A stretch of DNA of 64,000 bases from an uncultured Bacilli bacterium (GTDB taxonomy: Bacteria > Bacillota_I > Bacilli_A > RF39 > UBA660), in contig CANQXV010000001.1 in NCBI GenBank assembly GCA_947627895.1, forward strand, positions 3,987 through 67,986, read 5' to 3'. A program made the translations under genes and the position numbers. The notes beneath the pieces were generated by a model. It was not told the DNA's origin and did not search any database. It saw only the letters and a program-made list of their open reading frames with translations. Each line of letters begins with the position of its first letter. Positions within the stretch are counted from its first letter, which is position 1. Shown piece by piece: positions 50,939-52,355 of this stretch.

Positions 50939-51391
50939 CTAACTTGTTATTCGATTATTACTTCCTACAAAGGCACTAGTTTGACCATCTATTTTAAAAT
51001 TAGTTAAATCGCCTAAAACTGGTAAATTAAATTTATAAAAGAAGCGGATATTATAAAGAACTAATCCATTCGAAGTACTTTTTTCTTGAAAACAATAATA
51101 ATATTCATTACTTGAATTACTTTGTTCAAAAGTCCCATTAAAGTCGATAGCTCCCCACCATTCATTTGGACATTTTCCTTTATCCTTATAACCAGTTGCT
51201 GATAAATAATTATTTAATATTTGGCCCGATTCTGTACTTACACCTTCATATTTTTCAATTACTGATAAAGCTTCATTTTTAATCGCATAAGCTCGGGAAT
51301 AGCTTATTACTAAAGATAAAAAACAAGCAAAAATTAAAATAAAGATAATAATTAATTGAAATGTCCAGGTTGTTCCTATTGTCTCTCTCAT
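50939..51391 (-). CDS. Pseudopilin/TadE-like small secreted membrane-anchored protein (paralog group B)
   Basis: The N-terminus MRETIGTTWTFQLIIIFILIF has a charged start, a Gly and a hydrophobic helix. Its start ATG overlaps the upstream stop (TAATG). Confidence 0.4.
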   Translation of the reverse strand: MRETIGTTWTFQLIIIFILIFACFLSLVISYSRAYAIKNEALSVIEKYEGVSTESGQILNNYLSATGYKDKGKCPNEWWGAIDFNGTFEQSNSSNEYYYCFQEKSTSNGLVLYNIRFFYKFNLPVLGDLTNFKIDGQTSAFVGSNNRITS

Positions 51392-51903
51392 TAGCTACAT
51401 AACCCCGCGATATCGTTGTAAAGAAGTCTAGTTTCTCCTTTAGTTTTAAAATCATATATTTGTTTAATAACTGGCAAATCTAGTTGATAAAAAACTACTA
51501 CTTGATAGTAAAAACTATTAACATTTCCTTGAGGAGCTAGATTACCACCAAGCAAACTTTTTAAATGATTTTCTACTTCTGAAGATACATGAACACATTT
51601 AATACATATGGCCGCCGGTCCATCATTTGTAACTCTACTACCATCTCTTTGAAACCCAGTGTATCCATCTTCACAATGTCCTGTGGTTCGGTAAGCACTA
51701 TTTTCAATCGAACTAACTATTTCATCATTAAGATTTTCACCATCAAGAAAATCACCTTCACTGGTTTCAATAATATTGGTTATTTTATCTTTAATACCAA
51801 AAGCATTGGCGTTATTAATTGTTAAACACATAATGGCTGTAAATAATAGTATAAATAAAATAACTATTTGGAAGATGCTAACGGCACCAATTGACTCTTT
51901 CAT
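51391..51903 (-). CDS. Pseudopilin/TadE-like small secreted membrane-anchored protein (paralog group B)
   Basis: The N-terminus MKESIGAVSIFQIVILFILLF is paralogous to the 150-aa neighbour. It has a Cys-containing extracellular region. Confidence 0.4.
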   Translation of the reverse strand: MKESIGAVSIFQIVILFILLFTAIMCLTINNANAFGIKDKITNIIETSEGDFLDGENLNDEIVSSIENSAYRTTGHCEDGYTGFQRDGSRVTNDGPAAICIKCVHVSSEVENHLKSLLGGNLAPQGNVNSFYYQVVVFYQLDLPVIKQIYDFKTKGETRLLYNDIAGLCS

Positions 51904-51910
51904 TTAATCA

Positions 51911-52150
51911 CTATCCTTTATAAACACAACGGAATGTTCCTTCAACTTCGCTGGCCGTACAAGAGCAATATCCTTCATTTTCATCTCGTACTTCAGCACT
52001 ACAATCACAAGTTGCTCGATTACAATCAGCTTGCTTTTTAAAGTTATTGTGGATCATGGGCCACAAATAACTGAAAAAAAAGGTCGCTAGGACCCCTACA
52101 GATATAATTACAATAACCGTGCTATTTAATTCTCCTGTAGCCTCTTTCAT
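51911..52150 (-). CDS. Flp/minor-pilin-like small protein with a Cys-rich C-terminal tail (paralog group A)
   Basis: MKEATGELNSTVIVIISVGVLATFFFSYLWPMI is followed by an eight-Cys tail. It has an AAGGA SD. Confidence 0.4.
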   Translation of the reverse strand: MKEATGELNSTVIVIISVGVLATFFFSYLWPMIHNNFKKQADCNRATCDCSAEVRDENEGYCSCTASEVEGTFRCVYKG

Positions 52151-52157
52151 TTAGTCC

Positions 52158-52355
52158 TTAATTATTTGATTCATCTGTGGCCATACAAGTATCAATACAT
52201 TCAGTGTCATTATTAGGACATTGTGCTTCACAAGTATTTTTCTTAATACTAGCTTGAATACTTGGCCATACAAATGCATAAAAGAATGCTCCAACTGCAG
52301 CAATAGCCACAACAGTTACAACTGTCATATTTAATTCTCCTGTCGCTTCTTTCAT
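52158..52355 (-). CDS. Flp/minor-pilin-like small protein with a Cys-rich C-terminal tail (paralog group A); first gene of the operon
   Basis: MKEATGELNMTVVTVVAIAAVGAFFYAFVWPSI is followed by a five-Cys tail. It has a strong SD, AAGGAGGA. Confidence 0.4.
   Translation of the reverse strand: MKEATGELNMTVVTVVAIAAVGAFFYAFVWPSIQASIKKNTCEAQCPNNDTECIDTCMATDESNN

What the first reader, a model, noticed from the sequence alone, without database searches (positions are those of the whole stretch)
50939..52355. Four small paralogous proteins with pseudopilin-like N-termini and Cys-rich ectodomains
Two pairs are present. The 65-aa and 79-aa proteins share MKEATGELN(M/S)TV + helix + (F/L)WP(S/M)I and then carry 5-8 Cys in about 30 residues. 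The 170-aa and 150-aa proteins share (K/R)E(S/T)IG(A/T)(V/T)x(I/T)FQ(I/L)(V/I)I(L/I)FIL. The Cys-rich tails suggest disulfide- or metal-stabilised tips, which is unusual for an anaerobe-like spore-former. The conserved Gly near position 6 could be a prepilin-peptidase-like cleavage site.
Basis: partly seen in the sequence, partly recalled or inferred. Interest (0 to 1): 0.6.

Follow-up and report, generated by a model that had tools for sequence, protein, structure and literature searches.

The report
Pilin genes of divergent Tad-like pilus
The four small genes are real. They are most likely the filament subunits (two tiny cysteine-rich ones and two larger ones) of an unstudied, very divergent relative of the Tad/Flp adhesion pilus that is widespread in uncultured gut Bacilli, but they lack the classic pilin cleavage motif and no processing peptidase was found.

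Summary
Four tightly packed minus-strand ORFs (65, 79, 170, 150 aa) form two paralogous pairs. All begin M(K/R)E..G followed by a single hydrophobic helix.

No Pfam or NCBIfam model matches them, but they are strongly conserved. In 47 of 59 species-level genomes of uncultured gut Bacilli, the same block sits directly behind a Tad-like assembly set. The block is the four genes, a TadZ-like protein and two 2-TM proteins. The assembly set is DUF5411, two CpaB-like proteins, a CpaF/VirB11-class ATPase and two polytopic membrane proteins.

In the window's own subclade (rabbit-gut MAGs) the block is detached from that set. It lies behind an M29 aminopeptidase and a T4SS cluster, which looks incidental.

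The 65-aa protein has a near-invariant N-terminus (MKEATGELNMTVVTVVAIAAV...) and a hypervariable tail with an even number of Cys, as expected of a major pilin.

The canonical prepilin motif (G/A/S)x4(D/E) is absent from all four. Gly6 is replaced in many orthologues of the 170-aa, 150-aa and 79-aa proteins. No A24 peptidase was seen.

Verdict: the pilin set of a divergent type IVc-like system, a new variant of a known kind. Processing is unresolved.

The parts
52158..52355 (-). A: 65-aa Flp-sized pilin-like protein, candidate major subunit. MKEATG, then a helix at about residues 10-32, then a 4-Cys tail (C-x3-C-x7-C-x3-C).
   Evidence: ORF and RBS. Across 52 unique orthologues, residues 1-33 are 91% identical on average against 31% for the tail, and the tail has 4, 6 or 8 Cys. 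The same N-terminus occurs in distant lineages where the C-like protein is only about 31% identical. No Pfam or NCBIfam hit.
51911..52150 (-). B: 79-aa paralogue of A with a conserved 6-Cys tail ending C(V/P)(Y/F)KG. Candidate second or minor small pilin.
   Evidence: 40% identical to A, E 1e-15. 54 unique orthologues have 6 Cys in 53 and 8 in 1. Residue 6 is Gly in 48 and Gln in 6.
51391..51903 (-). C: 170-aa protein with an N-terminal helix and an alpha/beta domain. It occupies the TadE/TadF position (minor-pilin-like) and has two invariant extracytoplasmic Cys (C77, C100).
   Evidence: 347 homologues. Alignments. AF2 pLDDT 78, helix 7-47 then an alpha/beta domain. No Foldseek match in PDB. 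In 9 of 59 genomes the orthologue is 401-526 aa; three ~510-aa C-family cluster representatives of matching size carry a C-terminal Peptidase_M15 module.
50939..51391 (-). D: 150-aa paralogue of C. Its start overlaps the stop of C by 1 nt (translational coupling).
   Evidence: 27% identical to C, E 1e-10. Orthologue N-termini are M(R/K)E..(G/E/S)(S/T)TW.FQ. In lineage L072 the D-like protein is fused to Peptidase_M15.
49933..50928 (-). [not shown]
   Evidence: AF2 pLDDT 76. Foldseek against PDB hits ParA 3ea0, ParF 4dzz, MinD 4v03 and FlhG 4rz2, E 4e-5 to 2e-3. 3827 homologues, 63-79% identical among the 120 best hits listed. Always follows D.
48905..49921 (-). 338-aa 2-TM membrane protein. 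It is the orthologue of the 116-aa gene in relatives, here extended by about 220 aa of Asp/Asn/Cys-rich repeats.
   Evidence: 41% identical to the 126-aa paralogue, E 1e-21. tblastn links it to L001 genes 116/115. Only weak T4SS_pilin / Mbov_0396 similarity, below cut-offs.
48433..48813 (-). 126-aa 2-TM membrane protein, last gene of the module. Conserved G-M-(V/I)-D-L-G-K-A at the end of TM1 and a Cys-containing tail.
52356..52436 (-). Intergenic leader between the M29 aminopeptidase gene and A. It holds a promoter-like TTGCTA-17-TATAAT and the RBS of A.
   Evidence: (52414..52386, 10 of 12 matches; such matches are not above the shuffled expectation).

Best explanation
A-D are the structural subunits of a divergent Tad-like (type IVc-like) filament system of monoderm gut Bacilli.

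Each protein would insert in the membrane as an N-in signal anchor: M-K-E-x-x-G/S, then one hydrophobic helix.

In most genomes a CpaF/VirB11-class ATPase and two platform-position membrane proteins are encoded immediately upstream. In this genome they must be encoded elsewhere. These would extract the subunits from the membrane and polymerise them through their conserved helices.

A, possibly with B, would form the filament body. Its small hypervariable tail, stabilised by disulfides or metal, would be exposed on the surface.

C and D are larger, stand in the TadE/TadF position, and in some species carry a peptidoglycan-peptidase (M15) module. They would act as priming, tip or wall-crossing minor subunits.

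The TadZ-like protein would dock or position the machine.

Shown here: gene reality, paralogy, conservation pattern, synteny with Tad-like assembly genes in relatives, the TadZ-like fold and the helix-plus-domain model of C.

Inferred: filament formation, the roles of A/B versus C/D, any N-terminal cleavage, and the presence of the ATPase and platform genes elsewhere in this genome.
For: 1. Synteny. In 47 of 59 species-representative genomes the TadC-position gene lies directly upstream of A-B-C-D-Z and the two 2-TM genes. The full upstream set is DUF5411, CpaB-like x2, T2SSE ATPase and two polytopic membrane proteins. The same core is kept in distant lineages.

2. The ATPase of relatives hits Pfam T2SSE at 2.8e-29. 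Its best solved relative is CpaF (8rkd, E 2.5e-18), then FlaI and VirB11. The CpaB-like proteins hit TIGR03177 at 1.5e-14 and 2.4e-9 and contain SAF+RcpC.

3. Z has a receiver-like domain plus a ParA/MinD fold with a Lys-less P-loop. This is the TadZ/CpaE architecture (own knowledge of TadZ, PDB 3FKQ).

4. Residues 1-33 of A are 91% identical across 52 unique orthologues, against 31% for the tail. Cys counts are always even.

5. C models as helix 7-47 followed by an alpha/beta domain. M15-bearing versions of C and D resemble the 'modular pilin' idea.

6. All four share the start M(K/R)E..G. In lineage L067 the C-like protein starts MKEATG like A, and the D-like protein MRDATG.

7. Precedents exist for divergent Gram-positive tad-like loci whose pilins escape motif or HMM detection (PMC3244431, PMC11680825), and for a DUF5411+CpaF+PilC operon predicted in Clostridia (PMC9523054).
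Against: - The canonical prepilin motif is absent from all four proteins and all orthologues tested.
- Pfam Flp_Fap and TadE, and NCBIfam, do not hit.
- Foldseek finds no solved pilin resembling the C model.
- The two platform-position proteins do not hit T2SSF.
- The ATPase, CpaB and other matches are all below curated family cut-offs.
- No A24 prepilin peptidase is present in the window or in the 10-kb flanks of relatives.
- In this window the assembly genes are absent, so function here depends on unseen genes.
- There are no expression or filament data.
Confidence: 0.65

Rival explanations
1. A-D are uncleaved signal-anchored membrane proteins. They would form a static envelope-spanning or pseudopilus-like accessory complex of the Tad-like machine (for example a wall-crossing or secretion conduit) rather than an extended pilus.
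For: No canonical cleavage motif. Gly6 is replaced by Ser, Glu or Gln in many C, D and B orthologues. No peptidase gene in any operon seen. M15 peptidoglycan-peptidase fusions suggest a cell-wall-proximal location. The very strong conservation of residues 1-9 is unusual for a discarded leader.
Against: The hypervariable, even-Cys tail on an invariant helix in A is the pattern of a surface-exposed polymer subunit under diversifying pressure. Two Flp-sized proteins followed by two TadE/F-sized proteins mirror Tad pilin sets. A static complex would not obviously need a CpaF-class motor.
Confidence: 0.18
2. They are small components (VirB2/VirB3/VirB8-like) of the neighbouring VirB4/VirD4 type IV secretion or conjugation system.
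For: In the window and 4 of 6 close relatives, VirD4 or VirB4 lies within the 10-kb flank upstream on the same strand. The two 2-TM proteins give weak T4SS_pilin / Mbov_0395-0396 hits.
Against: Housekeeping genes separate the two clusters: rhodanese, DedA/VTT, an opposite-strand ORF and an M29 aminopeptidase. None of the 47 genomes with the Tad-like arrangement has VirB4 or VirD4 within 10 kb. The T4SS-pilin hits are far below cut-offs (15.7 bits against 26.6; 22.4 against 70).
Confidence: 0.05
3. A and B are precursors of secreted Cys-rich peptides (bacteriocin or RiPP-like) with a conserved leader and a variable core.
For: Small size, a conserved N-terminus and a hypervariable Cys-rich C-terminus.
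Against: The conserved part includes a 19-21-residue membrane-spanning helix. No modification enzyme, dedicated transporter or immunity gene is adjacent. The genes are always embedded between Tad-like assembly genes and C/D/Z.
Confidence: 0.03

Closest known systems
Tad/Flp (type IVc) pilus: Flp1/Flp2 major pilins, TadE/TadF minor pilins, TadZ, TadA/CpaF, TadB/TadC, RcpC/CpaB, TadV (PMC10191384, PMC3244431)
   Same: Two roughly 60-90-aa subunits are followed by two roughly 150-170-aa subunits. Each has one N-terminal helix. They sit beside a CpaF-like ATPase, two separate platform-position membrane proteins, CpaB-like proteins and a TadZ-like protein (relatives).
   Different: No G/xxxxEY or (A/G)x4(D/E) motif. 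No Flp_Fap, TadE or T2SSF HMM hits. The leader is only 6 residues (MKEATG), followed by Glu at +1. The tails are Cys-rich. No TadV was seen. There are extra conserved partners: DUF5411, two 2-TM proteins and a 1150-aa Cys-rich surface protein. In this window the pilin block is detached from the motor genes.
'No-Flp' tad-like loci of Clostridia (C. kluyveri, C. bolteae and others) described by Imam et al. 2011 (PMC3244431)
   Same: Gram-positive tad-like loci with tadA/tadC/tadZ/rcpC homologues, only distantly related to other tad genes, and no protein with an apparent prepilin signal peptide.
   Different: Those loci were reported to contain tadV. Whether their unknown small genes are homologous to A-D was not tested here.
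DUF5411 + CpaF + PilC operon predicted in Roseburia, Ruminococcus and Eubacterium (Miller et al. 2022, PMC9523054)
   Same: An uncharacterised 8-9-gene operon with DUF5411 and a CpaF-class ATPase. Most of its other genes are unrecognisable.
   Different: It is a computational prediction only, in Clostridia. Homology of its small genes to A-D was not checked. Here the host is an uncultured Bacilli clade.
TANB77 conserved Tad-like pilus cluster with unannotatable pilin-like proteins (PMC11680825)
   Same: An uncultured gut Firmicute clade with CpaB, TadZ/CpaE, TadA and TadB/C detectable mostly by structure, followed by several 1-TM pilin-like proteins without sequence homology to known pilins.
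   Different: The gene order and protein sizes differ (143-621 aa, fused TadC-TadB). The cluster was reported as exclusive to TANB77. No Cys-rich Flp-sized subunits were described.

Membership tests
Type IV pilins (class III signal peptide) | Prepilin cleavage motif [GAS]-x4(uncharged)-[DE] followed by at least 14 uncharged residues near the N-terminus (PilFind rule, PMC3244431) | tested here: not met
   The regex gave 0 of 4 window proteins, 0 of 117 C/D orthologues and 0 of 42 superfamily members. By inspection the A and B orthologues (MKEATGELN...) also fail.
Type IV pilins (class III signal peptide) | Exactly one N-terminal TM helix, a short charged N-terminus and length under 350 aa | tested here: met
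   The most hydrophobic 19-mers start at residues 8-11. Lengths are 65-170 aa. C models with helix 7-47.
Type IV pilins (class III signal peptide) | Processing by an A24 prepilin peptidase encoded in the genome | not testable with these tools
   No A24 hit among all window ORFs of at least 100 aa or in the 10-kb flanks of L001. The rest of the genome is not available. Cleavage needs mass spectrometry.
Flp/Fap pilin (PF04964) | Match to the Flp_Fap profile; Glu +5 and Tyr +6 after the Gly | tested here: not met
   No Pfam hit at E<=1 for A or B or for the L001 orthologues. After Gly6 the sequence is E-L-N-M-T-V.
Flp/Fap pilin (PF04964) | Very small (about 60-90 aa) subunit encoded next to tadA/tadB/tadC | tested here: inconclusive
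   The size criterion is met. The adjacency criterion is met in 47 of 59 related genomes but not in this window.
TadE/TadF pseudopilins (PF07811 TadE-like) | Match to the TadE profile | tested here: not met
   No hit for C or D or for 42 diverse superfamily members at E<=0.1.
TadE/TadF pseudopilins (PF07811 TadE-like) | N-terminal helix plus globular domain, encoded after the flp genes | tested here: met
   AF2 model. Gene order A-B-C-D in all loci.
Tad (type IVc) system | TadA/CpaF-family ATPase in the locus | tested here: inconclusive
   Absent from the window. Present in relatives: T2SSE 2.8e-29, best PDB match CpaF at 2.5e-18. However, the NCBIfam VirB11 and TadA-family scores are far below cut-offs.
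Tad (type IVc) system | Two single-domain platform proteins TadB and TadC (T2SSF) | tested here: inconclusive
   Two polytopic membrane proteins (301 and 262 aa) stand in that position in relatives, but give no T2SSF hit in Pfam, NCBIfam or PDB.
Tad (type IVc) system | TadZ: receiver-like N-domain plus an atypical ParA/MinD ATPase domain | tested here: met
   Two-domain AF2 model. The C-domain matches ParA, ParF, MinD and FlhG. The P-loop lacks Lys. No sequence-level hit to solved TadZ.
Type IV secretion system small subunits (VirB2-like T4SS_pilin PF18895) | Profile match above cut-off, and co-occurrence with VirB4 | tested here: not met
   A-D give no hit. The 126-aa protein scores 15.7 bits against a 26.6 cut-off. 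No VirB4 or VirD4 lies within 10 kb in the 47 Tad-type loci.

The most novel reading that the evidence does not exclude
This is a type IV-filament-like system that does without a canonical A24 prepilin peptidase. There are two versions.

1. The subunits are 'leaderless' and polymerise with their native MKEATGE N-terminus. Lys2, Glu3 and Glu7 would replace the N-terminal amine / Glu5 salt bridge of classical pilins.

2. The subunits are processed by a new enzyme. The always-present pair of 2-TM proteins, with the conserved G-x-(I/V)-D-(L/F)-G-K motif at the predicted cytoplasmic end of TM1, would be the obvious candidate.

The evidence does not exclude either version. No peptidase gene appears in any operon examined. 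The canonical motif is absent. Gly6 is substituted in B, C and D orthologues. Residues 1-9 are more conserved than a discarded leader would need to be.
Probability: 0.15. Interest if true: 0.85.

Novelty: new variant of a known kind. Interest (0 to 1): 0.5.

Why it matters
Type IV filaments are held to need four core parts: pilin, prepilin peptidase, ATPase and platform (PMC10191384). Their pilins are recognised by a simple N-terminal motif.

This system has pilin-position proteins that escape every motif and profile test. It is nevertheless abundant in uncultured gut Bacilli of humans, rabbits, chickens and mice, with 347 homologues of C, 3827 of Z, and 788 clusters (50% identity) in the C/D superfamily.

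It marks a blind spot in the annotation of surface appendages of the gut microbiota. It also gives a conserved, surface-exposed, hypervariable antigen (A), comparable to the TANB77 pilin that was reported to modulate immunotherapy (PMC11680825).

If processing proves to be non-canonical, it would widen the definition of the type IV filament superfamily.

Tried and rejected
- Pfam and NCBIfam scans of A-D gave nothing.
- A Pfam scan of 42 diverse C/D superfamily members gave only two weak DUF4320 hits, E 0.0077.
- Foldseek of the C model against PDB gave no match, best E 0.5.
- PDB sequence and profile searches with Z found no TadZ. Only the fold search was informative.
- A PDB sequence search with the TadB-position protein gave nothing.
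- hhalign of the C/D profile against DUF5411 showed no relationship beyond the TM segment, probability 10%.
- I tried to see beyond the window. The exact-protein look-up of the window's C found only contigs of 1.5 kb or less, and VirB4 was not on record. I therefore could not establish whether this genome encodes the ATPase, platform and peptidase genes elsewhere.
- The T4SS-component reading was rejected on synteny statistics.
- The RiPP/bacteriocin reading was rejected because the conserved 'leader' contains a full TM helix and no maturation genes are adjacent.
- Promoter and terminator scans are not above the shuffled expectation and were used only descriptively.
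Full report
**1. What is in the window**

Between 52355 and 48433, seven minus-strand genes are packed head to tail:

| Gene | Coordinates | Length |
|---|---|---|
| A | 52355..52158 | 65 aa |
| B | 52150..51911 | 79 aa |
| C | 51903..51391 | 170 aa |
| D | 51391..50939 | 150 aa |
| 2-TM protein | 49921..48905 | 338 aa |
| 2-TM protein | 48813..48433 | 126 aa |

- A is preceded by AAAGGAGGA, and C/D overlap by one base.
- A/B are paralogues (40% identity, E 1e-15). So are C/D (27%, E 1e-10) and the two 2-TM proteins (41%, E 1e-21).
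- All four small proteins begin M-(K/R)-E-x-x-G and then carry one strongly hydrophobic helix.
C has two invariant extracytoplasmic Cys.
- None of the four matches any Pfam or NCBIfam model, even at E<=1.

**2. The wider window**

- Upstream on the same strand lie an M29 aminopeptidase, then an opposite-strand ORF, a DedA/VTT protein and a rhodanese-like ORF.
- Further upstream is a T4SS set: VirD4, a lipoprotein, an M23/lysozyme/NlpC-P60 hydrolase, and VirB4 whose best model is the mycoplasma-ICE Mbov_0397 type.
- Downstream is a convergent MurC.
- The rest of the window is chromosomal housekeeping of an anaerobic spore-former: SpoVA, a sporulation-type sigma factor, NrdD/NrdG, UvrB, FtsY, RNase J and LysRS.
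- No T2SSE ATPase, T2SSF platform, CpaB or A24 peptidase is encoded anywhere in the 64 kb.

**3. Relatives settle the context**

- C has 347 homologues, all unnamed and from gut metagenomes or MAGs.
- A scan of one genome per species found 59 loci. Their labels include 'uncultured Bacilli', 'uncultured Tenericutes', Firmicutes bacterium CAG:460, Clostridium sp. CAG:609 and Candidatus Onthocola. NCBI places the latter in Bacilli incertae sedis.
- In 47 of the 59, the block A-B-C-D-Z and the two 2-TM genes lies directly behind a fixed gene series:
  - a 253-aa surface protein;
  - a 1150-aa Cys-rich surface protein;
  - DUF5411;
  - two CpaB-like proteins (SAF+RcpC; TIGR03177 at 1.5e-14 and 2.4e-9);
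  - a 368-aa T2SSE ATPase;
  - two polytopic membrane proteins (301 and 262 aa).
- The ATPase's best solved relative is CpaF (E 2.5e-18), ahead of FlaI and VirB11. NCBIfam places it among VirB11, TadA and TrbB, well below all cut-offs.
- Six loci, all rabbit-gut MAGs 65-72% identical in C to the window, share the window's arrangement of M29 and T4SS upstream.
- No locus has both Tad-like and T4SS genes within 10 kb.
- I conclude that the T4SS neighbourhood in the window is a lineage-specific rearrangement. The ancestral partner of A-D is a Tad-like machine.
- At least one other, distant lineage (L071) has also detached the pilin block from the motor genes. Imam et al. note that pilin genes need not be in the biosynthetic operon (PMC3244431).

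**4. Conservation pattern**

- Across 52 unique A orthologues, residues 1-33 are 91% identical on average and residues 1-9 are invariant (MKEATGELN).
- The A tail is 31% identical, ranges from 31 to 66 residues, and always has 4, 6 or 8 Cys.
- B has 70% and 42% identity for the same two regions, with 6 Cys in 53 of 54 sequences and a conserved C-terminal C(P/V)(F/Y)KG.
- The same A N-terminus persists in lineages where the C-like protein is only about 31% identical to the window's.
- An invariant assembly helix carrying a hypervariable exposed knob is what major pilins look like. This is an inference.
- The C/D superfamily is large: 788 clusters (50% identity) at E<=0.001 and 291 at E<=1e-10. 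Pfam does not cover it.
- Its consensus start is M(K/R)E(A/S)IGG.W.F, so Gly6 is ancestral. In the window's own C clade it is mostly Ser, and in D it is Gly, Glu or Ser. Six B orthologues have Gln.

**5. Structure**

- Z (pLDDT 76) has two domains. Residues 1-120 form an N-terminal alpha/beta domain. Residues 153-315 form a P-loop domain that matches ParA, ParF, MinD, FlhG and HypB.
- Z's P-loop (T-E-G-A-G-S-T-T; consensus TEHAGSTT) lacks the Lys residues. This two-domain architecture with an atypical Walker A is that of TadZ/CpaE (my own knowledge of TadZ).
- In nine genomes the C ORF is 401-526 aa; three ~510-aa C-family cluster representatives carry a C-terminal Peptidase_M15 domain. In L072 the D-like protein carries one.
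- This fits either a modular minor pilin or a wall-crossing helper in a thick-walled monoderm.

**6. Tests of family membership that failed**

- The PilFind rule, [GAS]x4[DE] followed by 14 uncharged residues (PMC3244431), is met by none of the four proteins, none of 117 C/D orthologues and none of 42 superfamily members.
- After Gly6, A reads E-L-N-M-T-V, so the Flp hallmark Glu+5/Tyr+6 is absent.
- Flp_Fap, TadE and T2SSF profiles do not hit.
- No A24 peptidase is seen in the window or in operon flanks.
- A-D should therefore not be filed as Flp/TadE family members. The claim that they work like the pilin set of a Tad-type machine rests on synteny, architecture and the conservation pattern.

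**7. Mechanism**

I commit to this model at about 0.65 confidence:

- A-D insert as N-in signal anchors.
- A CpaF-class motor with two platform proteins polymerises them through the conserved helices. The motor is adjacent in most species and unseen here.
- A, possibly with B, forms the shaft, with disulfide- or metal-stabilised variable knobs.
- C and D prime, cap or help the fibre cross the wall.
- Z docks the machine.

Whether the hexapeptide MKEATG is removed is open; I put cleavage after Gly6 at roughly one in three.

Rivals:
- a non-filament membrane complex of the same machine (0.18);
- T4SS subunits (0.05);
- Cys-rich secreted peptides (0.03).

**8. Comparison with the literature**

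- Imam et al. 2011 described Clostridial tad-like loci that have distant tad genes and no recognisable prepilin (PMC3244431).
- Miller et al. 2022 predicted an uncharacterised DUF5411+CpaF+PilC operon in Roseburia, Ruminococcus and Eubacterium (PMC9523054).
- A divergent Tad-like cluster with unannotatable pilin-like proteins was reported in the uncultured TANB77 clade, and one of its pilins had immunological activity (PMC11680825).
- Bulleidia (Erysipelotrichales) has a more canonical tad operon with tadV, pilA1/2 and TadE/F/G (PMC12786226).
- I found no paper describing the A-D families, the MKEATGELN N-terminus or this operon in Bacilli.

I rate it a new variant of a known kind, of moderate interest. 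The interest would be high only if processing proves to be independent of a peptidase or to use a new enzyme.

Noticed in passing
window 55500-63592 (minus strand): A chromosomal T4SS-like cluster: VirD4 (741 aa), a lipoprotein (247 aa), a 797-aa M23 + lysozyme + NlpC/P60 hydrolase, and VirB4. VirB4 is encoded as two ORFs in different frames, 188 aa (63294..62728) and 595 aa (62726..60939). Its best model is the mycoplasma ICE Mbov_0397 family (3e-102, below cut-off). The 595-aa gene size recurs in relatives L005 and L007, so the split is probably not a sequencing error. No relaxase or integrase was looked for.
   Followed up: partly
window 48905-49921 (minus strand): The first 2-TM protein is 338 aa here, against about 110-140 aa in most genomes. 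It is extended by about 220 aa of Asp/Asn-rich repeats with paired Cys (e.g. NIDLDNDGVCDVNCDTNNDN), which resemble calcium-binding repeats. Only three of 105 unique orthologues are this long (338, 370 and 434 aa).
   Followed up: partly
window 48433-48813, and orthologues in L001-L072: The 2-TM proteins carry a conserved G-x-(I/V)-D-(L/F)-G-K-A motif at the end of TM1. Asp occupies that position in 81 of 92 motif-bearing unique sequences, and the window's 338-aa paralogue has Asn. The motif lies next to a Lys-rich loop that is probably cytoplasmic, and it superficially recalls the GxGD motif of aspartyl intramembrane peptidases. Function unknown.
   Followed up: partly
L017, L019, L022, L028, L039, L044, L047, L049, L057 (C gene at about 10001); L072 7402-9081: In nine species the C orthologue is 401-526 aa, and three ~510-aa C-family cluster representatives of that size (P0146, P0147, P0149) carry a C-terminal Peptidase_M15 (VanX-like) domain. 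In a distant lineage the D-like protein carries the same module.
   Followed up: partly
L071 7814-11923: A distant lineage in which a reduced block (Cys-rich surface protein, C-like, small pilin, C-like, Z, 2-TM) is also detached from any ATPase or platform genes. It sits beside DnaB/DnaI-like replication genes. This is independent of the detachment seen in the window.
   Followed up: partly
L001 280-4490 (and 40+ other loci): The Tad-like operon of relatives starts with a 253-aa protein (signal peptide plus C-terminal anchor) and a 1150-aa very Cys-rich secreted protein with no family match. These are candidate adhesin or tip partners. They are absent from the window.
   Followed up: no
window 22980-25971 and 7606-9189: A sortase-dependent surface-protein or pilus locus: an 815-aa protein with five SpaA-fold repeats and a thioester domain, followed by a sortase. 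Separately, a 527-aa protein carries a sortase domain. This is a second, unrelated type of surface fibre in the same window.
   Followed up: no
window 39350-46849 (minus strand): A 2499-aa surface protein with a signal peptide, an N-terminal membrane segment, a low-complexity Asn/Ser region and an HExxH motif (THESAHNLDD). Not scanned against families.
   Followed up: no
window 26019-26717 (minus strand): A ComEA-like protein (SLBB + HHH_3). It hints at a competence apparatus, and so at a possible ComC-type A24 peptidase elsewhere in the genome that could also serve A-D.
   Followed up: no
window 53738-54520 (+), 9198-11537 (-), 6927-7475 (-): Several sizeable ORFs (260, 282, 495 and 182 aa) have no Pfam match at the thresholds used.
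   Followed up: no
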